In this document: piece by piece, positions 4,133-58,018 of the stretch
Numbering within the stretch: position 1 is the first letter of the stretch
How the letters are laid out: each line of letters begins with the position of its first letter
Source of the DNA: an uncultured delta proteobacterium
GTDB lineage: Bacteria > Desulfobacterota > Binatia > Binatales > Binataceae
Direction of reading: 5' to 3'
DNA length: 64,000 nt
Assembly: GCA_963783145.1 (NCBI GenBank)
Contig: CAWAMM010000009.1
Span: 287,717-351,716 of the forward strand
Position numbers and translations under genes: made by a program
Notes under the pieces: generated by a model
Database searches by the model: none
Told to the model about the DNA's origin: nothing
Seen by the model: the letters and a program-made list of their open reading frames with translations, nothing else

Positions 4133-5587
4133 ATGTCGGGAAAAATGAGTTCTAAAGAAATTCGCAAGCGCATCGGTCATCCGGTCATCGACGCCGACGG
4201 TCATTGGCTGGAGTTCGGCCCGTCGATCAATGACTACTTGAAAGAGGTTGCCGGGGAGGGCGCGGTTAATTCGTTTCGTCGCCGCGCCGGCTATGTCGCG
4301 AAGTCCCTCACCATGACTCCCGAAGAGCGTGCGCAAACGCGCCGCGCGCAGGAGGCGTTCTGGGGCGTGCCGGCGAAGAACACTCTGGACCGCGCCACTG
4401 CCATGCTTCCACGCCTCCTCTACGATCGCCTCGACGAGTTCGGCTTCGACTTCACGGTCCTCTACCCTACCGCCGGTCTCGCGGTTGGCTACATTCCGGA
4501 AGATGAGATCCGTCGCGCAAGCTGCCGCGCATTCAATATGTATATCGCGCATCAGTTCGGCGAATTCAGCGATCGCATGACCCCCGCCGCCGCGATTCCG
4601 ATGCATACTCCGGAAGAGGCTGTGGAAGAACTGGAGTATGTCGTCAAGGAGCTGGGCCTGAAGGTCATAGTAATGACCAGCCTGGTGCCGCGGCCGATTC
4701 CGGCATTAGGACAGAAATCCGGCGAAATGCGCGGGCTGGGAACCTGGTCCGACGTTTTCGGCATCGATAGCCCCTATAACTACGACTCGGTGTGGTCGAA
4801 GTGCGTTGAACTTGGAGTGATGCCCACCTTCCATGCCGGCACCCGAGGCGCGGGCTATCGCACCTCACCGACTAACTTTGTCTTCAACCACATCGGACAT
4901 TTCGGGGTTGCCGGCGAAGCGGTTGCGAAAGGACTCTTCCTCGGCGGTGTGACGCGCCGTTTCCCGACGCTGAAGTTTGCGTTCCTGGAAGGGGGCGTGG
5001 GATGGGCCTGCGGCCTCTACTCGGATCTGATCGGTCATTGGAAGAAGCGCAATCGCCGCGCGCTCGAGGAGGTCAATCCCGCTAACCTCGATCGCAAGCT
5101 GATGCATGAGCTATTCGAGCGCTTTGGGAGCAAGCAACTTGCCGATAGCCTCGATAGCAGCGCGATGTTTGACGGTCTCGGCGCGACCGGCACCGGCAAC
5201 ATCAAAGACCTCGACGATTTCTCGGCTTGTGGCATCGAAAGCCCCGAGGACATTCGTGAATTGTTCACCCGAAACTTCTATTTCGGTTGCGAGGCGGATG
5301 ACCCTATCAATGCTTGGGCCTTCAATTCCCGGGTGAATCCTTACAAGGCGCGCCTTAAGACGCTGCTCGGCTCCGATATCGGCCATTTTGACGTAGTGAA
5401 TATGAACGAAGTGCTGGAGGAGGCCTATGAGCTGGTCGAGGACGGACTCATAAGTGACGAAGACTTTCGTGAGTTCGTATTCACCAATCCTTTGCGCTTC
5501 TGGGCCGAGGGCAGGCCGGACTTTTTTAAGGGCACGGTTCTCGAAAGCGAGGCGGCCGACGCGCTTCGTGACTCGAAGTCGCATTGA
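4133..5587 (+). CDS. Amidohydrolase family protein
   Basis: 484 aa; IDADGHWLE and overall similarity to PF04909 amidohydrolases; sits in the aromatic-catabolism neighbourhood. Confidence 0.6.
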   Translation: MSGKMSSKEIRKRIGHPVIDADGHWLEFGPSINDYLKEVAGEGAVNSFRRRAGYVAKSLTMTPEERAQTRRAQEAFWGVPAKNTLDRATAMLPRLLYDRLDEFGFDFTVLYPTAGLAVGYIPEDEIRRASCRAFNMYIAHQFGEFSDRMTPAAAIPMHTPEEAVEELEYVVKELGLKVIVMTSLVPRPIPALGQKSGEMRGLGTWSDVFGIDSPYNYDSVWSKCVELGVMPTFHAGTRGAGYRTSPTNFVFNHIGHFGVAGEAVAKGLFLGGVTRRFPTLKFAFLEGGVGWACGLYSDLIGHWKKRNRRALEEVNPANLDRKLMHELFERFGSKQLADSLDSSAMFDGLGATGTGNIKDLDDFSACGIESPEDIRELFTRNFYFGCEADDPINAWAFNSRVNPYKARLKTLLGSDIGHFDVVNMNEVLEEAYELVEDGLISDEDFREFVFTNPLRFWAEGRPDFFKGTVLESEAADALRDSKSH

Positions 5588-44475: not shown

Positions 44476-46791
44476 TCAGGCGGCTTGCTGATACAGGTAG
44501 CGCTGGAAGCCGACGAAGGTTTTGTTGATGTCTTCCGGCTTTCCGAGGTCGGCAACCGCATCGGCAATCGAGTTGTGGTACTTCAGGCGCAGCAGAGGCG
44601 TCAGTTTTTCCGGGTCGAGCTCATCGACGCCTACGCTCACGTAGTGAGATAGGACGAAGTCGAGGAACGCCTGCTGCCGGGCTGGGAAGCTCGTCCCGAT
44701 CACCACTTTGGCGTTCGCCGCGCGCTCCTCGCGCGTAAGCGGCGCCAGCGCGTACGCGATGTGCGCCAGCACATCGAAGAGGTCGCTCTTCTCCGCGTCG
44801 ATGATCTTTTGCATCTCGTCGAGCTGCGCGCGCCCGAAGCCTTTTTCGGCGAGGCCATCCAATAACTTGCGCCGCGTGTCGGGCGCGCTCCACAGCGTGC
44901 GCAATTCCGCTTCATCTTTGAAAAACTCCGGCAGCTTGCCGAACAGCAACTGCATGAACTGCTGCGCCGACATCGGCTTGCCGTCGGCATGCCAGAACGT
45001 GGTGCACATCATGTCCTGGATCGAGCGCGCCTTGCCGTCCGAGAGTTTGATCTTGATCTTCTGCGGACGCGGACGCGGTTCCAGCGGAGGCCCAGGGTCA
45101 ATCGGCGGCCCCTCGATTTTCGGCTTTTTCGGTTCTTCCGGCTCCGGCTCGATCGGCTCGCCGTCCCACTCAGGATCGCTGAAATGATGATGGGCCTTTA
45201 CGAAGTCGAGGATCGTGAAGTAATCCTTGCCATCGTAGAGCCGCGTGCCGCGTCCGATGATCTGCTTGAACTCGATCATCGAATTGATCGGCCGCATCAG
45301 CACGATATTGCGGATGTTGCGCGCGTCGACGCCGGTCGAAAGCTTCTGCGAGGTCGTCAGAATGGTGGGGATGGTCTTTTCGTTGTCCTGGAACGCGCGT
45401 AGATGCTGCTCGCCCAGCGCGCCGTCATCTGCCGTGACCCGCTGGCAGTAGTTGGGCTCCTTGCTGGTCTTGAGCTGATTGATAAGGTCGCGCACCGCCA
45501 GCGCATGCGCCTGGGTCGCGCAAAACACCAGCGTCTTTTCGTTCTGGTTGATCTGCTCCATCAGCAGCTTCACCCGATGCGCCTCGCGTTCCTTGATCTC
45601 GATGATCTTGTTGAAGTCGCTTTCGGTGTAGCGCTTGCCTTCCTGGACCTCGCCCTCGATCAGCGTGTCGTCGGCGGTATAGACGTATTCATCGAGGGTG
45701 GTGGAGATTTGCTTGACCTTGAACGGGGTCAGGTAGCCGTCGTTGATACCGTCCTTCAGCGAGTAAACGTAAACCGGGTCGCCGAAATACTTGTAAGTGT
45801 CGACGTTGTCCTGGCGCTTGGGCGTGGCGGTGAGACCTAGCTGCACCGCAGGCGCGAAGTACTCCAGGATGCCGCGCCAGTTGCTCTCGTCGTTGGCGCC
45901 GCCGCGATGGCATTCGTCGATCACGATGAAATCGAAGAAGTCGGGCGGATACGCTCCGAAGTTCGATGACTTCGTCCCATCTTTGGACTCGGTCATGAAG
46001 GTCTGAAAGATGGTGAAGAAGAGGCTGCCGTTCTTGGGCACCTTGCCCTTCTTGCTGATTTCTTCGGGACGAATCCGCACCATCGCGTCTTCGGGAAATG
46101 CGGAGAACTCGTTATAGGCCTGATCCGCCAGGATGTTGCGGTCGGCGAGGAACAAGATGCGCGGACGGCGCTCGGGCTTACGGCTCAGATTCCAGCGTGC
46201 GTGAAATAGCTTCCACGCGATCTGAAACGCGATGAAGGTCTTGCCGGTGCCGGTCGCGAGCGTGAGCAGGATGCGCTGCTGGTTCGCCGCGATCGCCTCC
46301 ATCACTCGATCGACGGCGATGTCCTGGTAGTAGCGGCTCAGATGCGAACCGCCCTTGTCCTGAAAGGGCACTTTCGCGAAGTCGTCACGCCATTGGTTTT
46401 GTTCGGCGAAGGTGCGGTTCCAGAGTTCTTCGGGGCTGGGATAAGCGGCCAACGGACCTTCGGTGCCGTCAACCATATCGACGCCGTAGATGCCCTGCCC
46501 GTTGGAGCAATACCCGAAGCGTACTTTCAGCTTGTCGGCATAGTCCTTGGCCTGCGCGAGGCCCTGGGTAAGTTCCTCATCCCACGCCTTGGCCTCGACC
46601 ACGGCCAGCTTGTGGTTGCGATATTCCAGCACGTAGTCGAGCTTGAGGCCTTTGGCGCGCTTTCCGAAACCTTCCAGCCGACCGAGGGAGATGGGATATT
46701 CGCACCGAAGGCGGCTGCCCTCGACCACGCCCCATCCAGCGGCTCTAAGGGCAGGGTCGATGTACTCGTTTCTGGTTTCGGCCTCGTTCAT
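44476..46791 (-). CDS. hsdR: Type I restriction enzyme R subunit
   Basis: N-terminal nuclease domain (VVEAKAW), helicase motifs LATGTGKT, DECHRG, and further SF2 motifs; 771 aa. Confidence 0.85.
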   Translation of the reverse strand: MNEAETRNEYIDPALRAAGWGVVEGSRLRCEYPISLGRLEGFGKRAKGLKLDYVLEYRNHKLAVVEAKAWDEELTQGLAQAKDYADKLKVRFGYCSNGQGIYGVDMVDGTEGPLAAYPSPEELWNRTFAEQNQWRDDFAKVPFQDKGGSHLSRYYQDIAVDRVMEAIAANQQRILLTLATGTGKTFIAFQIAWKLFHARWNLSRKPERRPRILFLADRNILADQAYNEFSAFPEDAMVRIRPEEISKKGKVPKNGSLFFTIFQTFMTESKDGTKSSNFGAYPPDFFDFIVIDECHRGGANDESNWRGILEYFAPAVQLGLTATPKRQDNVDTYKYFGDPVYVYSLKDGINDGYLTPFKVKQISTTLDEYVYTADDTLIEGEVQEGKRYTESDFNKIIEIKEREAHRVKLLMEQINQNEKTLVFCATQAHALAVRDLINQLKTSKEPNYCQRVTADDGALGEQHLRAFQDNEKTIPTILTTSQKLSTGVDARNIRNIVLMRPINSMIEFKQIIGRGTRLYDGKDYFTILDFVKAHHHFSDPEWDGEPIEPEPEEPKKPKIEGPPIDPGPPLEPRPRPQKIKIKLSDGKARSIQDMMCTTFWHADGKPMSAQQFMQLLFGKLPEFFKDEAELRTLWSAPDTRRKLLDGLAEKGFGRAQLDEMQKIIDAEKSDLFDVLAHIAYALAPLTREERAANAKVVIGTSFPARQQAFLDFVLSHYVSVGVDELDPEKLTPLLRLKYHNSIADAVADLGKPEDINKTFVGFQRYLYQQAA

Positions 46792-48032
46792 GCGACGCGT
46801 TCCTGGAGTTTTTCGGATGCGGCTAGCTCACCGTTGAAGGCCTGATGCAGCAGGGACTTCTTGAGCGCCTCGATTGCTACGAGTTTGCGCTTGTAAATGG
46901 ATTCGAGGCGCTGGGTTTCCTCCGCGAGAGTATCGAGTACCGTTACCGCTGCGCGCTGCTGATGCGGGGTTACTCTTGGGACCTCGAAGCTTCTCAGTAC
47001 TTTCAACGACACGGTTTTCTGAGCCGTGCCAGTGGCGCGTTCGTCCGCTTGCTTGAACACCTGAGGCGACAAGAGCAGGTAGTAAAGCCAAGCACTCTGG
47101 ATTTCCGCCTTCGGTCGAATCAATCCAATGTGCCGCTGGAAGCAGAATTCAAAATTGTTCTCAAGGATCACAGGAATGCCGAACGAGCCTGTGACCGTAT
47201 AGAGCACGTCGCCTTTGCTTGGCTTTCGATGCGTCTTTATGCGGTCAAAATAATTGCGAGGCACCATGAACGTATTGGTGAAGTCGATGGTCCGCGTCTC
47301 CTTGTTAATATTCCCGATCGTGACCAAAGGGACTCCGGCTTGCGACTTGGGCGGCGGAACATGATCTCCGTCAGTTATGTCGGTCGCCAGGTCTGAGAGA
47401 GCGACCAACTCGCAGGACGACCACATCTCCGCGAACACGGATTGGAGGTGGCTCTCGAAAATGGCGCGGGCGTTTTGGAGGTTCTTTTCGGCGTTGGCTT
47501 TGGCGGTCGCGATGCCCTCGAACGCCTCATCGAGGATGCCTACGATCCGCCGCTGCTCCGGAAGCGGAGGAACCGGAATGCGATAACTCTCTATGAATTC
47601 CTTCGCAACTCGCTGCTGACCGACCGCGCCACCCATTCGCGCCTCCCCTTCAATTCGAAAGTCGGCACGAGACAAGTAGTAGTAGAGGAACTCTTTGTCG
47701 AGACCTTGGGGCGGACGAAAGACAATGAACTCGCTGGAACCGAACCCAATGCCGTTGGTCAACCCTGACGCAATTCCAAGCTTTCCGTTCTCGAAACAGG
47801 GGGTGATCTTTGCAAGCAGTACGTCGCCGTCGGCGAAGTAGGTGTAACTCCCCTCTACTGACGCGAGTGGTTTAGCCTGTGTCGGAGTCAGGACCTTTCG
47901 GTCGATCCCGAGATCTTCCATCGGGACAAACGATACGAGCGCTTCGGGATCGACTCGCTTTCGCGCTTCCGACTTTGGCGGCCGTATCTCGCAGACCTCG
48001 GCCAAACTCTTTGTCGGCCATCCATTCTTCAT
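46788..48032 (-). CDS. hsdS: Type I restriction-modification specificity subunit
   Basis: Two TRD-like halves with conserved central/terminal repeats; 4-nt overlaps with hsdM and hsdR. Confidence 0.8.
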   Translation of the reverse strand: MKNGWPTKSLAEVCEIRPPKSEARKRVDPEALVSFVPMEDLGIDRKVLTPTQAKPLASVEGSYTYFADGDVLLAKITPCFENGKLGIASGLTNGIGFGSSEFIVFRPPQGLDKEFLYYYLSRADFRIEGEARMGGAVGQQRVAKEFIESYRIPVPPLPEQRRIVGILDEAFEGIATAKANAEKNLQNARAIFESHLQSVFAEMWSSCELVALSDLATDITDGDHVPPPKSQAGVPLVTIGNINKETRTIDFTNTFMVPRNYFDRIKTHRKPSKGDVLYTVTGSFGIPVILENNFEFCFQRHIGLIRPKAEIQSAWLYYLLLSPQVFKQADERATGTAQKTVSLKVLRSFEVPRVTPHQQRAAVTVLDTLAEETQRLESIYKRKLVAIEALKKSLLHQAFNGELAASEKLQERVA

Positions 48033-49489
48033 AGCAGCGCTCGAATGTTGTTCAGCACTTCGGCGCTTTCAGCATCGAGTGCGACGATTTCGTCGATGAT
48101 CTCTGTCGGGCTGCGATGCGCCACTTCTTCCGCGCTGTTGGGATTCTTGACCGACAAGTCGAAGGTCCTCGGGTCGATGCTCTTCGCATCGACGCTCCAA
48201 CTGTTCGACGAATCCGCGAAGGTCTTTTGCAACTTCACGAACTCCGCGAGGTCATCATCATTCGGCGGATTGGTCTTGCCGAGGTTGCGGCCTGGGTCAA
48301 GCTGATAAAACCAGATCTTCCGCGTCGGGGCGCCTTTCTCGAAGAACAGCACGACGGTCTTCACACCCGCACCTTGGAACGTGCCGCCCGGAAGGTCGAG
48401 GACAGTGTAAAGGTTGCAATCCTCGAATAGCTTCTTGCGCAGACTCACGGAGGCATTGTCGGTGTTGGAGAGAAACGTATTCTTGATGACGATGCCGCCG
48501 CGTCCGCCCGCCTTGAGAATCCGGATGAAGTGCTGGAGGAACAGAAACGCAGTCTCACCCGTGCGAATCGGGAAGTTCTGCTGCACTTCCTTGCGTTCGC
48601 TGCCGCCGAACGGCGGATTCGCCAGCACCACCTCGTAGCGGTCCTTTTCCTGGATGTCGGCGAGATTCTCGGTCAGCGTGTTGGTGTGGATGACATTAGG
48701 CGCCTCGATGCCGTGCAGAATCATGTTCATGATCGCCATCACATAGGCGAGCGACTTCTTTTCCTTGCCGTAGAAGGTGCGGGTCTGCAGCGTCTCGAAC
48801 TCCTTGACGGTCAGTTTCTTGTCGCGCTGCATAAAGTCGTAGGACTCGCACAGGAAGCCGGCCGAGCCGCATGCGCCGTCGTAGATACGCTCGCCGATCT
48901 TCGGCTTGACGACCTGTATTATCGCGCGGATTAGGGGGCGCGGCGTGTAATACTCGCCGCCGTTGCGCCCGGCATTACCCATGTTCTTGATCTTGGCTTC
49001 ATACAGGATGCGACAGCTCGTGCTTCTCGGTCTGGGAGCGGAAGCGCAGCTCGTCGATATGGTCGATGATCTCGCGCAGGTTGTAGCCGCTCTGGATCTT
49101 GTTTTTGATCTCGCCGAAGATTTCGCCGATTTTGTACTCGATGGTGTTCGGTTCGGTCCGGTGGCCTTCAGCTTGAAGCCCTGCAGATAGGGAAAGAGCT
49201 TCTGGTTGACGAAGTCGCAGATATCGTCGCCGGTCATCGCACGGTTATGGTCGAGCTTGCCGTCTTTGCCTTTGGGCGCCGCCCAGCTTATCCATCGGTA
49301 ATCCTTATCGAGGAGGTAGCTGTAGCTTCGGCCGTCGATCTGGGCGATGGTCAGCCGTTCCTGCTCCAAATCATCGAGATATTTGAGGAAGAGCAGCCAC
49401 GAAGTCTGCTCGATGTAGTCGAGCTCGGTGGTGCATCCGTCCTCCTTACGGAGGACATCATCGATGTTGCGAAAAGCCTGTTCGAACAC
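48029..49489 (-). CDS. hsdM: Type I R-M N6-adenine DNA methyltransferase subunit (with apparent paired internal frameshifts)
   Basis: HsdM_N-like N-terminus, GGEYYTPR, DGACGSAGFL (motif I), VLANPPFG (motif IV). The 49020-49160 segment is S/T/R-rich in-frame but protein-like in an alternative frame. Confidence 0.8.
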   Translation of the reverse strand: MFEQAFRNIDDVLRKEDGCTTELDYIEQTSWLLFLKYLDDLEQERLTIAQIDGRSYSYLLDKDYRWISWAAPKGKDGKLDHNRAMTGDDICDFVNQKLFPYLQGFKLKATGPNRTPSSTKSAKSSARSKTRSRAATTCARSSTISTSCASAPRPRSTSCRILYEAKIKNMGNAGRNGGEYYTPRPLIRAIIQVVKPKIGERIYDGACGSAGFLCESYDFMQRDKKLTVKEFETLQTRTFYGKEKKSLAYVMAIMNMILHGIEAPNVIHTNTLTENLADIQEKDRYEVVLANPPFGGSERKEVQQNFPIRTGETAFLFLQHFIRILKAGGRGGIVIKNTFLSNTDNASVSLRKKLFEDCNLYTVLDLPGGTFQGAGVKTVVLFFEKGAPTRKIWFYQLDPGRNLGKTNPPNDDDLAEFVKLQKTFADSSNSWSVDAKSIDPRTFDLSVKNPNSAEEVAHRSPTEIIDEIVALDAESAEVLNNIRALL

Positions 49490-50147: not shown

Positions 50148-50882
50148 TTACCCCGATGGCGTCGCTGTCCCTGCCGAGTCTAGTTTTGGCAGTTTTACGA
50201 CAAAAGTCGAGCCCATGCCGGGGGTGCTGGAGACGCTGATGTCGCCATGATGGGCGCGGGCGATGGCGCGGGCGACCCAGAGGCCGATGCCGAATCTGAC
50301 GTTTGGCTCATCTTTACCGAGTTTTACGAAGCGTTCGAAGATGCGCTCCTGGTCGGCCTCGGCGATCCCGATGCCCTGGTCGACGACTTCGAGGCGGATG
50401 GCGTCGTGGTCGGCCTCCAGGCGTACCTCGATGGGGCGCTGGTTGCCATACAACATAGCATTAGAAATGAGATTATAAGCAACCTGAGCGAATCTTGCGC
50501 GATCGCCTCGGATGAGCAGGGAGGGCGGCATTGAGACAGAGATAGGTGGAGGATCGGCGGCATCATTGAGGGAGCTGACAACCTCGGTCAACTTCAGTGA
50601 AACATCGAAGTCTTCGACCTGAAGCTGTAACCTCCCCGCGGAGATTCGGCTGACATCCAACATCTCCTCAACGAGCCGTGCCAGTCTTGAGACTTGCACC
50701 GTAGCACGATTGATGCGAGATGCAACCTGCTCTGATGGGAGCGGATTCGCGCCGCTATGTCCTCGAAGCAGGCTGGCCAGCGTCAGATGCAACGCGTTGA
50801 GCGGATTGCGAAGCTCATGCGCCACGGCCGAAAAAAATTCGTCGCGCGCGAGGAGTTCAGACTCGAGGTTTTCTTTCACCAT
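50148..50882 (-). CDS. Sensor-less cytoplasmic histidine kinase (HisKA + HATPase_c only)
   Basis: H-box FFSAVAHELRNPLNAL at the N-terminus; N, G1, G2 boxes; 244 aa, no TM. Confidence 0.8.
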   Translation of the reverse strand: MVKENLESELLARDEFFSAVAHELRNPLNALHLTLASLLRGHSGANPLPSEQVASRINRATVQVSRLARLVEEMLDVSRISAGRLQLQVEDFDVSLKLTEVVSSLNDAADPPPISVSMPPSLLIRGDRARFAQVAYNLISNAMLYGNQRPIEVRLEADHDAIRLEVVDQGIGIAEADQERIFERFVKLGKDEPNVRFGIGLWVARAIARAHHGDISVSSTPGMGSTFVVKLPKLDSAGTATPSG

Positions 50883-51790: not shown

Positions 51791-51931
51791 ATCTTCTTTT
51801 CTGTCATCCCGAGCGAGCCTTGCCAGTCGCCAAGCGAGCGAAGCGAGCGCGTACCAGGGACCTCCGCGCAGCGAGGGTGCCTGCTCTGGAACGGCTTGCG
51901 CGAAAGTCGGCGGAGCGGTTTACTTCTTGGT

Positions 51932-52156
51932 GTGAGGTTTGAAAAGTACATCACCGTCAAGCCCGGGGTTCGCAACGGCAAGCCTTGCCTCAAAGGAACC
52001 CGCATCACGGTCACCGACGTGCTCGAATATCTTGCCGGCGGGATGACCGAGGCGCAGATCCTGGCCGACTTCCCCGCGCTTAAACCTGAGCACATCCGAG
52101 CATGCCTCGCTTTCGCCGCCGCACGGGAACGCCGCCTCGCGAGCAGCGCGGCGTAA
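51932..52156 (+). CDS. DUF433-domain protein (putative antitoxin of DUF433/DUF5615 pair), GTG start
   Basis: YITVKPGVRNGKPCLKGTRITVTDVLEYLAGGMTEAQILADFPALKPEHIRACLAFAA is a classic DUF433 sequence. Confidence 0.65.
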   Translation: MRFEKYITVKPGVRNGKPCLKGTRITVTDVLEYLAGGMTEAQILADFPALKPEHIRACLAFAAARERRLASSAA

Positions 52157-52506
52157 AGCTGCTGCTCGACGAGAACCTCAGCTATCGGCTGGCGGCCCAA
52201 CTCGAAACTGGCTTCCCCGGCACTCGGCATGTCGATGCGGTCGGGCTTGGTGCCAAATCAGATGCCAGGATATGGGAGTATGCGGGTGACAATGGTTTCA
52301 CCGTGGTCTCGAAGGATGACGATTTTCGCCAGCTCAGTTTTCTGCACGGCGCGCCGCCGAAAGTCGTTTGGCTCGAAGTCGCTAACGCTTCGACGCAAAA
52401 GATCCTGCGCCTACTGAATGCCCGGCGGCCGGCGATCGAGGCCTTCGCCCGAGACGATGAGGAAGCGCTTCTCATCCTGAAGCTTCCGCGCGGTCCGAGG
52501 CGATAA
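52102..52506 (+). CDS. DUF5615-family PIN-like nuclease (putative toxin); start uncertain
   Basis: KLLLDENLSYRL...FTVVSKDDDF, conserved acidic residues of PIN-like Mut7-C fold; overlaps/abuts the DUF433 gene. Confidence 0.6.
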   Translation: MPRFRRRTGTPPREQRGVKLLLDENLSYRLAAQLETGFPGTRHVDAVGLGAKSDARIWEYAGDNGFTVVSKDDDFRQLSFLHGAPPKVVWLEVANASTQKILRLLNARRPAIEAFARDDEEALLILKLPRGPRR

Positions 52507-53402: not shown

Positions 53403-53696
53403 GTGCTACCTTCAGAGCTGATTTGTCGTCATGAAAAGCGCCTGCCAAAATTCAAGAATGAGGATGCGGAACGGAAGTTCTGGGCCTCGCACGATTCGAC
53501 CGAATACATCGATTGGCGTGGGGGCAAGCGCACCATCTTTCCCAATTTGAAGCCGACCTCGCAGACGATTTCCCTGCGCCTGCCCAAACCGATGCTCGAG
53601 CGCCTCAAGCAACTCGCGAATAAGAGAGATGTTCCCTATCAATCATTATTGAAGATGTTCGTCGCGGATCGGCTCAAAGCCGAATTGGGCGATTGA
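53403..53696 (+). CDS. brnA: BrnA/CopG-like antitoxin-family protein, orphan (no BrnT/DUF497 partner)
   Basis: KFKNEDAERKFWASHDSTEYIDW...ISLRLPKPMLERLKQLANKRDVPYQSLLKMFVADRL matches the recalled BrnA-type antitoxin family. Confidence 0.6.
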   Translation: MLPSELICRHEKRLPKFKNEDAERKFWASHDSTEYIDWRGGKRTIFPNLKPTSQTISLRLPKPMLERLKQLANKRDVPYQSLLKMFVADRLKAELGD

Positions 53697-53809
53697 GGTT
53701 GTCCGCGCGACCTTCCGATCTTTGCGCTTGAGCGAGCCCCACTTTTTGTCATTCTGAGGTGAGCGCGCAGCGCACCGCCGAAGAATCTCGATCCTTGCGA
53801 ACACCACCG

Positions 53810-53950
53810 CCTCGCGTGGCGACCGTTACCATCTCGCGCCCGCCCGCGCATCGAGGATTTCCCGACCGCGCGGCTCCGCAGGCAGGGATGGCACGCCGGT
53901 CGCAAAGAGAAACCGAGCGCGACCGCCGCGCCATCCCGCCCCCCGCCGCT
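53810..53950 (-). repeat. Partial inverted copy D of the 192-bp repeat
   Basis: ...ggatggcacgccggtcgcaaagagaaaccgagcgcgaccgccgcgccatcccgcc aligns to the reverse complement of copy B. Confidence 0.6.
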
Positions 53951-53995: not shown

Positions 53996-54421
53996 CTACC
54001 GAGCGGCCGTGTGGGCCTCGCGAAGCCGTCTCTCTTCTTCCGCCTTCGTGGCTTCGCGGGTCAGGCGCTCAGCACGGTCTTGCTGTGCGATTCGGCGTCC
54101 GAAAGTGAAGACAAAAATCCCCGCTGCAATAGCCACCCACAGCGGCATCAGCGAGACAATCACAAATGGCGTGAAAAACTGTGACATCGTTAACGCGGCT
54201 CACCGGCGACGTTCCAAAACCATACCGAACCACTCCAGAAATGCGCTGCCGATGACGCCCGCGACAAGAATTACCATAATCTGAACTCGCGAAAGAGACA
54301 ATTGATCCTCCGCGATGCCGAGCCCTAAATCCAAAGGTATGAAGACCAGAAACAGAACTGCCGCCTCACGAAAGGTGTCGCCGAGCATCTCGGCGTTTCC
54401 CCTTGGCGCATGTTCATCCAC
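53996..54421 (-). CDS. Two small adjacent membrane-protein ORFs (73 aa + 63 aa), possibly a disrupted single gene
   Basis: Hydrophobic helices in both ORFs (54200-54421 and 53996-54187), only a 12-nt gap between them; no motif recognised. Confidence 0.25.
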
Positions 54422-54487
54422 AAACAGTCGTGATACCAGAACGATCAGTTAGCCACAAGCGTAAAAATCACTCCCTCTGGATGTCAA

Positions 54488-54619
54488 ACGATTTCCCTGC
54501 GCCTGCCCAAACCGATGCTCGAGCGCCTCAAGCAACTCGCGAATAAGAGAGATGTTCCCTATCAATCATTATTGAAGATGTTCGTCGCGGATCGGCTCAA
54601 GGCCGAATTGGGCGATTGA
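54488..54619 (+). pseudogene. Duplicated 3' fragment of the brnA-like gene (part of a ~237-bp segmental duplication)
   Basis: 54488-54727 is near-identical to 53564-53800; it encodes ...ISLRLPKPMLERLKQLANKRDVPYQSLLKMFVADRLKAELGD* without a 5' half. Confidence 0.6.
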
Positions 54620-54962
54620 GGTTGTCCGCGCGACCTTCCGATCTTTGCGCTTGAGCGAGCCCCACTTTTTGTCATTCTGAGGTGAGCGCGCAGCGCGCAG
54701 CGGAAGAATCTCGATCCTCGCGAATGCAACCGTCGCACGCGAAAACCGCCCCGCTCGGATTCTCCACTCTCTGTCATTCCGGGGGAGCCTTGCGAGTCGA
54801 AGGATCTACGCGAAGCGTCGACCTATACGGCCCGCAACTACCCGAACGGCGCCGCCGCTCGAGTCTTTGTTGCCCTAGGTAGACCCCAGCAAATAAAGAA
54901 TCCCCTCCTCGGCCGTACGTCTCACACGCTCAAACAGACCCTCGTCTTTCCCAAGCAGGCTT

Positions 54963-56042
54963 GTGAATTTAAGACTTGGCCATTCAACCCGGTTGGGTTG
55001 CGCAGCGGGCAAAAGTCTGGCTTCCTCGAAGAGAGGTGCAAAGAAATTGATCTCAGAAAGTGACGCGGATCACGCATACGTTCGCCTCAAGGAGCTGCTA
55101 GAGAAGAAGGCCCTCTTTCGTCGTTCAGATCCAAAGCTAAGCGAGGCCGACACTCGCGCTAAATTGATCGATCCCCTCTTCCGCGATGTCCTCGGATGGC
55201 CGGAAGTAGAAATCCGAAGAGAAAAGCCGGTTGACAGCGGGTTCGCGGACTATGTTTTAGGTGCGGACGTAGCGTTCCTATTGGTCGAGGCAAAGAGGAC
55301 CAATCCACGTTTTCACATAGATGCGCCAACCCGACCGCGGAAGGTGCGCTTGGACGGGCCCCACCTCTTGGGGCAAAAAAAAGTGAAACCTCTCATAGAG
55401 CAGGTACAGGCTTATGCGAGCTCGCAGGGGGCTCAGTTCGCGATTCTGACAAATGGATCTCAGTTAGTGATTTTCAAGCCCTATCTTCCCGGGCGTTCTT
55501 GGTCGACTGGAACCGCCATCGTATTTCATGACCACGACGACATCGTCCAAGACTTCGCGCTGTTCCACCGGCTGCTTTCAAGAGATCGGGTCTATGCAGG
55601 TTCCCTGTTGGAGGAGTTCGAACAAATCGAAGGCATCACTACAACGTTCTATACGCCAATACAATTTCTCGATGATCCTGATGCCGAATTAGTACGAAAT
55701 CCGCTCTGGATAAAGATCGCGACCGTGTTAAGTCCCCTGTTCACCGACAATTTTGAAGATCCAGCTTTGCAACGCGAGATAATTGAAAATTGCTACGTGA
55801 CCACACCGCTCTCTGACCAAGCAGACGCTAGTCTCGACCGAAGGATAAGAGACACGCTCCCTATCAGCCTGAAAAACGCCGGAATTCAGGAGCTGGCACC
55901 CGGCTCCGGAATGCACAGCGCCTTCGGCCAGGGTTTAGAAAAGGACATTAGTATCCTCTCGTCGTCCAGGTACTTACGTTCTGACCGGCGGAGTGGGGAG
56001 CGGGAAGACAACGTTTTTGCGGCGTTTCGTCATGATTGGTAG
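54963..56042 (+). CDS. HsdR_N/Mrr-like PD-(D/E)xK restriction-endonuclease-fold protein
   Basis: SEADTRAKLIDPLFRDVLGW...ADYVLG...FLLVEAKR...AQFAILTNGSQLVIF matches the HsdR N-terminal nuclease domain pattern. The last ~20 aa are R-rich and look off-frame. Confidence 0.6.
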   Translation: MNLRLGHSTRLGCAAGKSLASSKRGAKKLISESDADHAYVRLKELLEKKALFRRSDPKLSEADTRAKLIDPLFRDVLGWPEVEIRREKPVDSGFADYVLGADVAFLLVEAKRTNPRFHIDAPTRPRKVRLDGPHLLGQKKVKPLIEQVQAYASSQGAQFAILTNGSQLVIFKPYLPGRSWSTGTAIVFHDHDDIVQDFALFHRLLSRDRVYAGSLLEEFEQIEGITTTFYTPIQFLDDPDAELVRNPLWIKIATVLSPLFTDNFEDPALQREIIENCYVTTPLSDQADASLDRRIRDTLPISLKNAGIQELAPGSGMHSAFGQGLEKDISILSSSRYLRSDRRSGEREDNVFAAFRHDW

Positions 56043-57513
56043 AGGATTTGTTGAGAACTACTGCATCTGGACACACGTCGACTTCCTTCCGTTTGGAAAT
56101 ATCGACCAAAACGTGGTCGATTCAGAAGTCCGCAGTTTTGTCTACCGACAAATCAGAAACGAGTTGGTGCGTTTGTATTCATCCAATATCCCGAGCAGCG
56201 GTTCGGAAATCCGTCAGCTGTTCTCAAGCGAGCTCGAGCGAGCGGAGAGAACGAAGCTTTATTCGATACCTCCAGATTCTCCAGAGTGGACCAAAGAAGT
56301 GAACGCTATCGTCGAGGCGCTTTATTCCGACGATGCGGCATTCGTAGACGCTCTTTTGAGAAAATTCGTCACCGGCGGTCTTCGACCGGTTTTCGTCTTA
56401 GATAACACCGATCAGTTGGGAGAACAATTTCAGGAAAGAGTTTTCCTTCTAGCCCAGAAGCTATCTCAGGAGCATAAGGCTCTTTCGATCGTAGCCTTGC
56501 GGGAAGAAAAGTTTTTTGCCGCTTTCCGACGCGGCATCTTCGATGCCTTTGGAGATAGGAGGTTTCATATTGGTTCGCCGGATCTCCGTAAGGTTCTCCA
56601 AAGGCGGCTCAACTACGGCCGCGAGAAGTTCCAACGGATCATGCAGGAAGGAAATTACCTGTCTAAGGAGGAGCTGCTAGATATTGATACCCTGCTGGAT
56701 GTACTCATTCGGTCCACCACTTCAGGTAATGCGAACATAGTTCGGATGCTGGCCTGTGTATCTAACGGCGACATGAGACATGCCCTTGATATGTTCCGGG
56801 AGTTCGTCAGTTCCGGAAACACCAACGTTAGTAAGATTATGAGTATAGGACGCGGCTACAAGGTGGCATTTCATGAGTTCGCCAAGTCAGCGATTCTCGG
56901 CTCCCGAAAGTACTATCGTAGCAACGTTTCGCACGTAGTAAATCTGCTTAAACCCTCGGCTGCTCGCCGGGCATCTCACTTGACTGCCATCAGAACACTA
57001 GCGAGACTTTCTCGCGCTGAAGAGGCTTCGTCACCCCACGGGGAGGGTTTTGTAAAGACAAAATCGCTTTTGCGAGAATACCGAGAATCGTTCGGTATTG
57101 CGGAGGACTTTCAAGAATGGGCCAACGAGCTCTTGCTACGTGGTCTCATAGAATCGGAGCCTCCACGGGTCGAAGGACTGGATAAGGCCGAGGCGCTAAG
57201 AATTACCGCGTCGGGAGCTTACTATTGGAAGTATCTTGTTCGAGCGTTTGCGTACATGGACTTGGTGTTTGTCGATACGCCCATCGAGGACAAGAATCTA
57301 GCCCACGAGCTCGCAAACCTCTCGGACGAGAACGACATGCCAGCTCGCTTTAAGAGGGTTCGGCTGTTTATGGACTACCTTGAAAAAGAGGAGAGGAGGG
57401 AGCTTTTGGAGGCAGCCCGGCGGACGGGACCTTATCAGGAGTCGCTGATGGGCCAAGTTCGAGAGCAGATCGAGGAGGAGATCCGCGTGATATCCAGCAA
57501 ACTGGATCTCTAA
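55993..57513 (+). CDS. P-loop NTPase (Walker A/B) with large C-terminal helical domain; probably the C-terminal part of a frameshifted fusion
   Basis: Frame continues upstream to stop at 55936 as RRPGTYVLTGGVGSGKTTFLRRF (Walker A); Walker B VFVLDNTDQ; GTG start lies inside the P-loop. Confidence 0.65.
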   Translation: MGSGKTTFLRRFVMIGRGFVENYCIWTHVDFLPFGNIDQNVVDSEVRSFVYRQIRNELVRLYSSNIPSSGSEIRQLFSSELERAERTKLYSIPPDSPEWTKEVNAIVEALYSDDAAFVDALLRKFVTGGLRPVFVLDNTDQLGEQFQERVFLLAQKLSQEHKALSIVALREEKFFAAFRRGIFDAFGDRRFHIGSPDLRKVLQRRLNYGREKFQRIMQEGNYLSKEELLDIDTLLDVLIRSTTSGNANIVRMLACVSNGDMRHALDMFREFVSSGNTNVSKIMSIGRGYKVAFHEFAKSAILGSRKYYRSNVSHVVNLLKPSAARRASHLTAIRTLARLSRAEEASSPHGEGFVKTKSLLREYRESFGIAEDFQEWANELLLRGLIESEPPRVEGLDKAEALRITASGAYYWKYLVRAFAYMDLVFVDTPIEDKNLAHELANLSDENDMPARFKRVRLFMDYLEKEERRELLEAARRTGPYQESLMGQVREQIEEEIRVISSKLDL

Positions 57514-58018
57514 GTCCGGTGGAATTACAATCATGGTGCGCGCAACGATCGAGATTTTTCGGCGGCGCGCTGCGCGCGCCGCGGAATGACATGAGGCAGA
57601 AGCAGCCTCGCTCGGGTGACAGACGAGGAAAGCATGGCAGCCGACGAAGATTCTAAGCGAGCGGTGGGTGAACCGCCCCTATCAAGAATTGGCTACAGGA
57701 TTTGTCCGGAGACCAGAATTCCGAAGTCGCGCGCGGCGCGCTGAATAAGGTCCCACTCCAGCGCCATCAGATGGCGCAACCTCTCCCATCGGGAGAGGGG
57801 CAGGCACATCGCTGCGCGGAGGTCCCTCGCCTCGCAAGGCTCGCTCGGGATGACATACGGCGGTTGTGGTCGCCGCGAAAATCCTGGGGCGCGCAACAAT
57901 CGAGATTCTTCGGCTGCGCGCTTTGCGCTCCCCTCATGTAATTTCCACTGGATCGCGTTTTCATCATTCGCACGCTATTCTTTCCGCGATTTATCGCGCG
58001 GTATTTTTCGGCGCGCGA

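What the first reader, a model, noticed from the sequence alone, without database searches (positions are those of the whole stretch)
54963..57513. HsdR_N/Mrr-like PD-(D/E)xK nuclease ORF followed by a P-loop NTPase ORF: apparently one ~850-aa gene split by a frameshift; candidate undescribed restriction/defence protein
ORF1 has the hallmark HsdR N-terminal nuclease pattern (E-x-DTR-x-KLIDP…LGW, D…EAK, …ILTNG). Its last ~20 residues (RYLRSDRRSGEREDNVFAAFRHDW) look like off-frame translation. In the +1 frame, an ORF opens right after a TAG at 55936-55938. It reads RRPGTYVLTGGVGSGKTTFLRRF, a beta-strand plus Walker A. It continues 506 aa with Walker B VFVLDNTDQ and a long helical C-domain. The annotated GTG start at 55993 falls inside the P-loop, which is implausible for an independent gene. 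I therefore infer a nuclease-ATPase fusion, either inactivated, mis-sequenced, or expressed by frameshifting. It sits in a defence island beside hsdRSM and TA modules. I cannot match the architecture (restriction-fold nuclease + non-helicase P-loop NTPase + unknown C-domain) to a named system from memory.
Basis: partly seen in the sequence, partly recalled or inferred. Interest (0 to 1): 0.7.

Follow-up and report, generated by a model that had tools for sequence, protein, structure and literature searches.

The report
Frameshifted nuclease–AAA+ ATPase defence-type pseudogene
The two overlapping reading frames are one gene for a roughly 820-residue protein, broken by a real frameshift; it belongs to a large, uncharacterised family that joins a restriction-type DNA nuclease to an ORC/Cdc6-like ATP switch, and intact relatives in E. 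coli prophages and Klebsiella plasmids can be tested directly.

Summary
ORF1 (54963/55047-56042) and the +1-frame ORF (open from 55939, ends 57513) are two halves of one gene. More than 100 intact 805-875-aa homologues (39-70% identity) cover 92-100% of the repaired protein. The two halves hit complementary parts of one 833-position profile, phrog_14719 ("unknown function").

The break is a net +4 nt at 55948-55965, best read as one extra base near 55950 plus an in-frame CGT codon. It is not an assembly error: the identical 30-mer occurs in seven other assembly records. Apart from the frameshift the gene is pristine (207 of 209 highly conserved residues kept), so the lesion is recent. No recoding signal is present.

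The family has three parts: an HsdR/type-IIG-like PD-(D/E)xK nuclease (D96, E109-x-K111, QxxxY), an ORC/Cdc6-STAND-grade AAA+ ATPase, and a lid plus winged helix. There is no repeat sensor and no conserved partner gene. It sits in mobile or defence contexts and is absent from PADLOC and NCBIfam. Five other loci carry independent lesions and a sixth has frame changes that may be sequencing errors.

The most likely function is an ATP-switched, oligomerisation-activated nuclease for defence; this is inferred, not shown. This copy is dead, and overall interest is moderate.

The parts
55047..55949 (+). 5' part of the pseudogene in its native frame (frame of ORF1). The probable start is TTG 55047; the alternative is GTG 54963. 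It encodes the PD-(D/E)xK nuclease domain and a helical linker, and the native reading ends at ...GLEKDI.
   Evidence: ORF list. Homologues align from about residue 28-33 of ORF1. The 331-aa call starting at TTG appears in other assemblies. RBS-like GAGG lies at 55033-55036. phrog_14719 positions 25-267, E 9e-38.
55125..55562 (+). HsdR/type-IIG-like PD-(D/E)xK nuclease core. Motifs: ExDTRxKxIDP (55143-55175), D96 (in 55239-55256), E109-A-K111 (in 55284-55298), Q147xxxY151 (55401-55415) and TNG (55443-55457).
55948..55965 (+). Frameshift site: ...GAC ATT [A] GTA TCC TCT CGT CGT CCA GGT... It carries a net +4 nt relative to the closest homologues. The best reading is one extra base at about 55948-55950 plus one in-frame CGT codon.
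   Evidence: DNA and protein comparison with L002, P0089 and P0001. The identical 30-mer is in L001, L019-L022, L030 and L031.
55950..56042 (+). Off-frame tail of ORF1 (SILSSSRYLRSDRRSGEREDNVFAAFRHDW*). This is not native protein.
   Evidence: No homologue has it; the same DNA read in the +1 frame gives the conserved strand beta1 and P-loop.
55951..57513 (+). 3' part of the pseudogene in the +1 frame: AAA+ ATPase, lid, winged helix and C-terminal helices. Motifs: Walker A 55987-56013, Walker B VFVLDNTDQLGE 56389-56424, LREE (Arg sensor-1) 56488-56508, FHIGSP 56563-56580, sensor-2-like SNGDMRHAL 56761-56787, winged-helix ESEPPR 57151-57168, stop 57511-57513.
54485..54817 (.). Upstream flanking repeats. 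These comprise the second copy of a 264-nt direct repeat (54485-54748; first copy 53562-53825) and the left arm of an inverted repeat (54678-54817).
   Evidence: the repeat finder; pattern search; alignment.
57534..57936 (.). Downstream flanking repeats. These are inverted copies of the same core at 57534-57577 and 57885-57936, and the arm at 57810-57855.
   Evidence: Short-read contigs of this locus break in these repeats.

Best explanation
Window 55047-57513 is a single gene, recently inactivated by a small insertion at 55948-55965. The insertion shifts the reading frame between the linker and strand beta1 of the ATPase. As it stands the locus can make only two products. One is a truncated nuclease-plus-linker protein with a 31-residue nonsense tail. 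The other, at best, is an ATPase fragment lacking beta1 (GTG 55993) or the whole P-loop (ATG 56032). The locus is therefore a pseudogene, and this allele is fixed in the sampled population.

The intact protein belongs to a large, uncharacterised family of stand-alone proteins of about 820 aa (phrog_14719). Each member has an N-terminal HsdR/type-IIG-type PD-(D/E)xK DNA nuclease, a helical linker, and an ORC/Cdc6-STAND-grade AAA+ ATPase with a helical lid and a winged helix.

The mechanism is inferred, not shown. The AAA+ module probably acts as an ATP-dependent switch rather than a motor, because the Walker B catalytic Glu is invariably Asn (DNxDQ). The winged helix and C-terminal helices would bind DNA or another trigger. 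ATP-dependent oligomerisation would then bring the nuclease domains together so that they cut DNA. This would restrict incoming DNA or abort infection, as shown for nuclease-bearing Avs and bNACHT proteins.

My probabilities are about 0.9 that this copy is a genuine pseudogene and about 0.55 that the family's role is defence against phages or mobile DNA.
For: One gene: the repaired fusion finds more than 100 intact 805-875-aa proteins at 39-70% identity covering 92-100%. Both halves hit complementary parts of phrog_14719. The profile search finds 903 cluster representatives at E<=1e-30, and nearly all of the top 150 are full length.

Real lesion: the identical frameshift 30-mer, with no gaps, is in L001 (NCBI), L019 and L020 (Logan runs), L021 and L022 (JGI), and L030 and L031 (ENA contigs of 1.03 Mb and 372 kb, same neighbours).

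Recent lesion: 207 of 209 columns conserved at 90% or more are kept, against a family median of 5.5 mismatches.

Accessory, defence-type context: the gene has 51.5% GC against 59% for the window. It lies next to Type I R-M and TA genes. Relatives lie beside an integrase plus AbiE, transposases and TA genes. Others sit in the moron region of an E. coli lambdoid prophage beside hokD, next to phage terminase and capsid-packaging gene remnants in K. aerogenes, and on Klebsiella conjugative plasmids. No partner gene is conserved.

Repeated independent decay: L002 has an IS21-family insertion plus a frameshift, L014 a 1.3-kb insertion and L029 a deletion of about 60 aa. L017 has five frame changes, though these may be sequencing errors. 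Two of eight E. coli copies are disrupted.
Against: There is no experimental or read-level evidence. No defence-association statistic was computed, and some neighbourhoods are ordinary metabolic genes (L003, L027). None of 50,697 phage genome records carries the gene.

The family lacks the large repeat sensor of characterised Avs and NLR proteins, and all its domains are about equally conserved (0.56-0.67). A protein-sensing, arms-race model therefore fits poorly.

The oligomeric state, the ligand and ATP hydrolysis are all unknown. Low-level ribosomal +1 slippage cannot be formally excluded from sequence alone. The near-perfect preservation of the gene would also be expected if it were still expressed in some way.
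Confidence: 0.72

Rival explanations
1. Sequencing or assembly artefact: the gene is intact in the organism and the extra base or bases are an error in this record.
For: A single-base indel is the commonest assembly error, and the gene is otherwise perfectly preserved. Two of the supporting records (L030, L031) carry neighbouring ENA assembly accessions and so may share a project and sequencing method. This is my inference; the records give no platform.
Against: The identical 30-mer across the site, with no gaps over 3.1-7 kb, is present in seven other records. They come from at least five different samples and pipelines: NCBI GCA_052916165.1, Logan ERR10755938 and ERR11523662, JGI 3300079084 and 3300055389, and ENA ERZ25039491 and ERZ25039507. 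These records differ from the window by 0-11 SNPs. The site is not a homopolymer.
Confidence: 0.03
2. The locus is still functional. Either programmed +1 ribosomal frameshifting in the 55939-55968 overlap would make the full-length protein, or the two ORFs would work as separate nuclease and ATPase subunits.
For: The two frames overlap by 104 nt (55939-56042), so a +1 shift before about 55968 would restore a near-native protein. The gene shows no further decay, and the allele persists across several samples.
Against: The overlap contains no known +1 motif: there is no stop-codon pause, no CUU-UGA-type site with an upstream Shine-Dalgarno sequence and no homopolymer run; frame 0 stays open to 56040. 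More than 100 relatives need no shift at this position. The first start codon in the +1 frame is the GTG inside the P-loop. Any separate ATPase would therefore lack beta1, or would lack Walker A entirely if it started at ATG 56032. Sister lineages are broken by unrelated lesions, which points to decay rather than recoding.
Confidence: 0.05
3. The family is not an immune protein but a mobile-element maintenance or transposition factor. This would be a TnsA-like nuclease fused to a TnsC/MuB/ORC-like AAA+ target selector or replication initiator. In the window the gene would be the cargo or engine of an element bounded by the flanking inverted repeats.
Against: No transposase or integrase partner is conserved next to it. 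Flanking inverted repeats are not seen in ten homologous loci beyond short pairs that look like chance matches. The window repeats also occur as a 264-nt direct repeat covering the 3' end of the CopG gene, so they look like the genome's own interspersed repeat. The nuclease is of the HsdR/type-IIG type with a QxxxY motif.
Confidence: 0.1
4. It is a decayed second HsdR-like subunit or accessory of the neighbouring Type I R-M system, not an independent system.
For: The N-terminal domain is of the HsdR_N type, and an hsdRSM operon lies 5.5 kb upstream.
Against: The neighbouring HsdR (44476-46791) is complete, with ResIII, Helicase_C and EcoEI_R_C domains. This protein has an AAA+ ATPase instead of the SF2 motor. 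Homologues occur without any hsd genes nearby.
Confidence: 0.02

Closest known systems
Nuclease-bearing antiviral STAND proteins (Avs3/Avs4; bNACHT25 with an Mrr-like REase)
   Same: It is a single polypeptide with an N-terminal PD-(D/E)xK nuclease effector, followed by an NTPase, a helical domain and a winged helix. Structure searches hit the plant NLR NRC3, CED-4, Dark and SeAvs3. It has an Arg at the sensor-1 position. It occurs in defence and mobile contexts. For this kind, the activation logic shown or proposed is trigger-induced oligomerisation that switches on the nuclease (PMC13581612; preprint 10.1101/2022.07.19.500537).
   Different: There is no C-terminal repeat sensor; only about 90 residues of helices follow the winged helix. 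The Nature 2026 survey analysed only sensors of at least 400 aa. No Avs or NLR model in PADLOC matches. The NACHT signature D[GAS]hDE is not met, since the family has DN[TS]DQ. A GDxRxAL sensor-2-like motif is present, which to my knowledge is typical of classical AAA+ proteins rather than STAND. All domains are evenly conserved, with no fast-evolving sensor.
ORC/Cdc6-clade AAA+ ATPases, including conflict-system members (BrxC/DUF499, SspC, TnsC/MuB, and Cdc6-like NTPase with a C-terminal REase 'CR-effector relatives')
   Different: The nuclease is N-terminal and of the HsdR/type-IIG type, not C-terminal or inserted. The catalytic Glu of the DExD box is invariably Asn. Sensor-1 is Arg. No partner genes are present (no PglZ, PglX, HerA or transposase). 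Pfam ORC-CDC6-like matches only 3 of 51 members, and weakly.
Type I HsdR and type IIG (MmeI/BpuSI) restriction enzymes
   Different: It has no SF2 translocase, no methyltransferase and no target-recognition domain. The nuclease is coupled to an AAA+ switch instead.
phrog_14719 (PHROGs v4, 'unknown function')
   Same: This is the same family: the match is full length for the E. coli prophage homologue (E 2.9e-301) and for P0002 (8e-102). The two window ORFs hit complementary halves of the profile.
   Different: It is a catalogue entry only, with no function, mechanism or name attached.

Membership tests
Single-gene nuclease-AAA+ family (phrog_14719) | Full-length collinear match to the profile of about 833 positions | tested here: met
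   ORF1 matches positions 25-267 (E 9e-38) and the +1 ORF matches positions 303-787 (E 1.6e-58). Close relative P0002 matches positions 25-809. The match is met only after joining the two frames.
Single-gene nuclease-AAA+ family (phrog_14719) | Uninterrupted reading frame of about 820 aa | tested here: not met
   There is a frameshift at 55948-55965, so the window copy is a pseudogene member.
Type I restriction HsdR | N-terminal PD-(D/E)xK nuclease with D...ExK and QxxxY | tested here: met
Type I restriction HsdR | SF2 (ResIII/DEAD plus Helicase_C) translocase motor | tested here: not met
   No helicase family is detected. The NTPase is of the AAA_16/AAA_22 type with an ORC/Cdc6 fold. The true HsdR of the island is at 44476-46791.
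Avs / antiviral STAND | Tripartite NTPase, helical domain and winged-helix module with an N-terminal effector | tested here: met
Avs / antiviral STAND | Large C-terminal repeat sensor (TPR, WD40 and similar; at least 400 aa in the 2026 survey) | tested here: not met
   Only the lid, the winged helix and about 90 aa of helices follow the NTPase, about 310 aa in all.
Avs / antiviral STAND | Match to a known Avs or NLR-like model | tested here: not met
   PADLOC 2.0.0 gives no Avs or NLR hit for six family proteins. Pfam nSTAND_NTPase5 and NACHT hits are only sub-threshold.
NACHT | Walker B signature D[GAS]hDE | tested here: not met
   The family has an invariant D479-N480-x-D482-Q483. The signature is as defined in preprint 10.1101/2022.07.19.500537.
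ORC/Cdc6-clade AAA+ | AAA+ core, helical lid and C-terminal winged helix, closest in fold to Cdc6/Orc1 | tested here: met
ORC/Cdc6-clade AAA+ | Sensor-2 arginine in the lid (GDxRxA-type motif) | tested here: met
   SNGDMRxAL (residues 599-607) is at least 90% conserved, and D-V-R-x-AL is kept in the E. coli homologue. Assigning it as sensor-2 rests on position in the model and on my knowledge of Cdc6 and RFC.
ORC/Cdc6-clade AAA+ | Catalytic Walker B glutamate (DExD) and arginine finger | tested here: inconclusive
   Glu is replaced by an invariant Asn (DNxDQ). The candidate Arg residues (R521, R530/531) lie in a low-confidence loop and are not kept in the E. coli homologue.
ORC/Cdc6-clade AAA+ | Sequence-level family match | tested here: inconclusive
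   Pfam ORC-CDC6-like matches 3 of 51 members weakly; AAA_16 matches 51 of 51 and AAA_22 matches 49 of 51 at E<=0.01, and for the window copy both fall below the gathering score. A PDB profile search finds only P-loop-level hits.
Anti-phage defence system (generic) | Experimentally shown protection | not testable with these tools
   No paper or supplement searched names the family or its accessions.
Programmed +1 frameshift gene | Conserved shift site with a slippery or pause motif, shared by homologues | tested here: not met
   Homologues are in frame at this position, and no motif is present in 55939-55968.

The most novel reading that the evidence does not exclude
The intact relatives of this pseudogene may form an undescribed, widespread single-protein immune system. 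The family has at least 900 clusters at 50% identity and is found from Acidobacteria-type metagenomes to E. coli prophages and Klebsiella plasmids. In this reading a hydrolysis-impaired ORC/Cdc6-like ATP switch (DNxDQ) senses DNA directly, using its own winged helix instead of a repeat sensor. It then licenses an HsdR-type nuclease by oligomerisation. That would make it a minimal link between replication-initiator-type AAA+ proteins and NLR-like immune receptors.
Probability: 0.3. Interest if true: 0.65.

Novelty: new variant of a known kind. Interest (0 to 1): 0.4.

Why it matters
Annotation: public records of this lineage call the locus as two 'hypothetical proteins' of 331/359 aa and 493 aa. 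It should be annotated as one pseudogene.

Biology: the finding leads to a large family of uniform architecture with no functional description. The family pairs a restriction-type nuclease with an ORC/Cdc6-STAND-grade ATP switch and lacks the usual sensor repeats. Intact members exist in E. coli lambdoid prophages (WP_001349602.1) and on Klebsiella conjugative plasmids (WP_047062017.1). The hypothesis of a single-gene defence system with a DNA-sensing AAA+ switch can therefore be tested with standard phage-challenge and biochemical assays.

Evolution: five other loci carry independent lesions (frameshifts, IS21-family and IS1 insertions, another insertion, a deletion), and a sixth has several frame changes that may be sequencing errors. 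This suggests the gene is costly or often dispensable, which is typical of self-toxic immune effectors.

Tried and rejected
1. Sequencing error. Rejected: the same allele is present in seven other assemblies.

2. Programmed +1 frameshift or a functional split. No motif is present, relatives are in frame, and the +1 frame has no start before the P-loop.

3. A 4-nt 'TCGT' duplication as the lesion. This was my first model and I used it for the query in A1. A single extra base near 55950 plus an extra CGT codon fits the closest homologues better: EKDI-VSSRR-PGTY against EKDIVSSDPGTY. Both models give a net +4 nt.

4. Transposon-like unit bounded by the flanking inverted repeats. Not supported: ten homologous loci lack such repeats.

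5. Second HsdR, NACHT or canonical Avs. Each fails a defining feature (see the membership table).

6. PDB sequence profile search. Only P-loop-level hits were found.

7. NCBIfam and PADLOC on six family proteins. No family was found.

8. Rfam and tRNA scans around the locus. Nothing relevant was found.

9. Promoter and terminator scan. No signal above the shuffled expectation.

10. Literature and supplement searches for accessions or the PHROG id. Nothing was found.

11. The AFDB50 fold library was unavailable.

12. Host taxonomy was not resolved. The window's other proteins are not in the exact-match index, and I ran no further search on this.
Full report
**1. The observation**

ORF1 runs 54963..56042 (+, 359 aa). 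A second ORF runs 55993..57513 (+, GTG start, 506 aa) in the +1 frame relative to ORF1. The +1 frame is already open from 55939, immediately after TAG 55936-55938. It reads KRTLVSSRRPGTYVLTGGVGSGKTTFLRRF. ORF1 continues in its own frame as ...GLEKDISILSSSRYLRSDRRSGEREDNVFAAFRHDW*. The GTG at 55993 is the valine inside GGVGSGKT (55987-56013).

**2. One gene, not two**

A conceptually repaired fusion was searched against 5.8 billion proteins. It returned more than 100 single-chain proteins of 805-875 aa at 39-70% identity covering 92-100% of the query. In them the junction reads ...LE(K/Q)DIV(S/N/G)S(D/R)PGTYVLTGGVGSGKT.

A profile of 51 members was searched against 1.84 billion cluster representatives. 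It finds 903 proteins at E<=1e-30 and 1823 at E<=1e-10, and almost all of the best 150 are full length.

The family is catalogued as phrog_14719, 'unknown function', with a profile of 833 positions. The window's ORF1 matches positions 25-267 (E 9e-38) and the +1-frame ORF matches positions 303-787 (E 1.6e-58) of that single profile.

**3. The lesion**

Compared with the nearest relatives, the window carries a net +4 nt between GAC AT. and CC. GG.. The reading that best matches the closest proteins is GAC ATT [A] GTA TCC TCT CGT CGT CCA GGT. This means one extra base at about 55948-55950 plus one extra in-frame CGT codon. It gives EKDI-VSSRR-PGTYVL against EKDIVSSDPGTYVL in P0089. The site is not a homopolymer.

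The identical 30-mer GACATTAGTATCCTCTCGTCGTCCAGGTAC, with no gaps over 3.1-7 kb, occurs in seven other records:
- NCBI GCA_052916165.1 (L001);
- Logan assemblies of ERR10755938 and ERR11523662 (L019, L020);
- JGI 3300079084 and 3300055389 (L021, L022);
- ENA contigs of 1.03 Mb and 372 kb with the same toxin-antitoxin neighbours (L030, L031).

These records differ from the window by 0-11 SNPs. The frameshift is therefore a real allele, fixed in the sampled population.

The rest of the gene is untouched. The window copy keeps 207 of 209 columns conserved at 90% or more, where the median family member has 5.5 mismatches. This argues for a recent event.

**4. Can it still be expressed?**

The +1 frame has no start codon between 55939 and the GTG inside the P-loop. 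A separate ATPase would therefore lack strand beta1. From the ATG at 56032, the start used in public annotation for the 493-aa product (P0006), it would lack Walker A altogether.

The overlap contains none of the known +1 recoding signals, frame 0 has no stop until 56040, and relatives need no shift. I rate recoding or a functional split at about 0.05.

**5. What the protein is**

*N-terminal domain, residues about 55-200.* The motifs are E61-x-D-T-R-x-K-x-I-D-P, D96, E109-A-K111, Q147-x-x-x-Y151 and T163-N-G. All are invariant or at least 90% conserved. Supporting hits are:
- PADLOC, N-terminus of type IIG enzymes, E 5e-6;
- Pfam HSDR_N and HSDR_N_2, weak;
- BFVD, an HsdR_N-domain phage protein.

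D...ExK plus QxxxY is, to my knowledge, the HsdR/RecB-family catalytic set.

*ATPase and C-terminal half.* The AF2 model has mean pLDDT 80. It shows a P-loop core with the following elements:
- strand beta1 and Walker A at residues 335-348;
- a helical insert of about 95 residues between beta2 and beta3;
- Walker B VLDN(T)DQxGE at 477-486;
- LREE at 511-514, following strand beta4;
- FHIGxP;
- a helical lid carrying SNGDMRxAL at 599-607;
- a winged helix at about 665-760;
- two long terminal helices.

At the sequence level only sub-threshold Pfam hits appear. Of 51 members, AAA_16 matches 51, AAA_22 matches 49, nSTAND_NTPase5 matches 48 and NACHT matches 30.

*Mixed character.* The module mixes traits. 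Arg at sensor-1 is STAND-like. The GDxRxAL lid motif and the beta5-Pro motif are Cdc6/RFC-like. The NACHT signature D[GAS]hDE is not met. The catalytic Glu of a DExD box is invariably Asn, also in the E. coli homologue at 25% identity. I therefore describe the module as an ORC/Cdc6-STAND-grade AAA+ switch, not a member of any named STAND clade.

No repeat sensor follows the winged helix. All domains are about equally conserved, at 0.56-0.67.

**6. Context and distribution**

The gene has 51.5% GC in a window of 59% (locally 60-64%). Its neighbours in the window are:
- a complete Type I R-M operon, with HsdR 44476-46791, HsdS 46788-48032 and HsdM 48029-49489, all on the minus strand;
- a DUF433/DUF5615 pair;
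- a Gp49(HigB)-type toxin with an HTH protein;
- a CopG antitoxin.

Relatives have no conserved neighbour. They lie in several kinds of place:
- beside an integrase plus AbiE, transposases, and TacAT or DUF433/DUF5615 modules, and sometimes beside plain metabolic genes;
- in the accessory region of an E. coli lambdoid prophage, between replication genes and hokD/rusA/Q;
- next to phage terminase and capsid-packaging gene remnants in K. aerogenes;
- on Klebsiella IncF conjugative plasmids between IS elements.

The close clade is rare and patchy. Eight loci were found in 185,579 species genomes, spread over Myxococcota, Planctomycetota, Acidobacteria, Eisenbacteria, Gemmatimonas and Bdellovibrionaceae. 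Eight of 5,426 complete E. coli genomes carry the distant branch. None of 50,697 phage records does.

PADLOC 2.0.0 and NCBIfam have no model for six family proteins. I found no paper naming the family.

**7. Repeated decay**

Besides the window lineage, other copies carry independent lesions:
- L002 (81% identity) has an IS21-family insertion and a frameshift.
- L029 (81% identity) has a deletion of about 60 residues with a frame change.
- L014 has a 1.3-kb insertion.
- L017 has five frame changes, which may be sequencing errors.
- Two of eight E. coli copies are broken, one by IS1 and one by a 1-nt indel.

**8. Mechanism**

*Shown:* the domain composition and the conservation of the nuclease and nucleotide-binding residues.

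*Inferred:*
- ATP binding to a slow or non-hydrolysing AAA+ switch;
- DNA or trigger binding by the winged helix and terminal helices;
- oligomerisation that juxtaposes the nuclease domains;
- DNA cleavage that restricts incoming DNA or aborts infection.

This follows what has been shown or proposed for nuclease-bearing Avs and bNACHT proteins (PMC13581612; preprint 10.1101/2022.07.19.500537). It also fits the recurrent ORC/Cdc6-plus-REase theme in conflict systems (PMC10853773, PMC12839542).

The even conservation and the lack of a repeat sensor favour a nucleic-acid ligand over a fast-evolving phage protein. Whether discrimination is type-IV-like (modified DNA) or trigger-based is open.

**9. 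Verdict**

The locus is a genuine, recent frameshift pseudogene of an uncharacterised family of single-gene nuclease-AAA+ proteins. It is a new variant of the 'NTPase-switched nuclease' kind, not a new category, and this particular copy is dead. Interest is moderate (0.4). The value lies in the family, which can be tested through its intact E. coli and Klebsiella members.

Noticed in passing
window 53562-53825, 54485-54748, 54772-54817, 57534-57577, 57810-57855, 57885-57936: An interspersed repeat brackets the pseudogene. Its core is ...TGTCATTC.G.GG.GAGCGCGCAGCGC.C.GC.GAAGAATCTCGATC... Two copies lie upstream in one orientation and two lie downstream inverted. These are the only four matches to the core pattern in the 64-kb window, against none expected by chance. 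Short-read contigs of this locus end in these repeats. Homologous loci elsewhere lack them, so they look like the genome's own REP/MITE-like element rather than ends of a mobile unit.
   Followed up: partly
window 54485-54619: This stretch is a duplicated 3' fragment of the CopG/BrnA-type antitoxin gene (53403-53696), comprising its last 44 codons (QTISLRLPKPMLERLKQLANKRDVPYQSLLKMFVADRLKAELGD*). It is part of the 264-nt direct repeat. Two small ORFs with no Pfam match (53996-54187 and 54200-54421, minus strand) lie between the two copies. This is a trace of recombination or insertion just upstream of the pseudogene. No BrnT-like toxin partner was identified.
   Followed up: partly
L002 11717-14513; L014 11731-13057; L029 about 5484-5487; L017 10001-12440; E. 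coli NZ_CP010171.1 397890-401170 and NZ_CP043414.1 3155641-3158146: Independent inactivating lesions occur in other copies of the same family. They are an IS21-family insertion plus a frameshift, a 1.3-kb insertion, a deletion of about 60 aa, multiple frame changes (possibly sequencing errors), an IS1 insertion and a 1-nt indel. This suggests the gene is costly or often dispensable.
   Followed up: partly
L025 12001-14505 (E. coli MS 119-7, NZ_CP146653.1 3255229-3257733): An intact distant homologue (WP_001349602.1, 834 aa; hhalign probability 100%, E 1e-51) sits in the accessory region of a lambdoid prophage, between replication genes and hokD/rusA/Q. It is a convenient experimental entry point for the family.
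   Followed up: partly
window 44476-49489 (-): A complete Type I R-M operon. HsdM is at 48029-49489, HsdS at 46788-48032 with two target-recognition stretches, and HsdR at 44476-46791 with ResIII, Helicase_C and EcoEI_R_C domains. The genes overlap by 4 nt. GC here is 56-60%, slightly below the 62-64% seen at the window's right end.
   Followed up: partly
window 50148-50882 (-): A 244-aa ORF with only HisKA and HATPase_c domains and no sensor or transmembrane part lies at the edge of the island. It may be a truncated histidine kinase.
   Followed up: no
window 55375-55382: An A8 run lies inside the nuclease-coding part (CAA AAA AAA GTG, giving QKKV). It is a potential slippage tract, but it is in frame here and unchanged in all seven other assemblies.
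   Followed up: partly
window 51920-52506 and L007/L008/L009: The same DUF433/DUF5615 pair that lies upstream of the pseudogene in the window also lies just upstream of an unrelated family member (P0035) in three groundwater and soil contigs. This may be a recurrent island neighbour or a coincidence.
   Followed up: no
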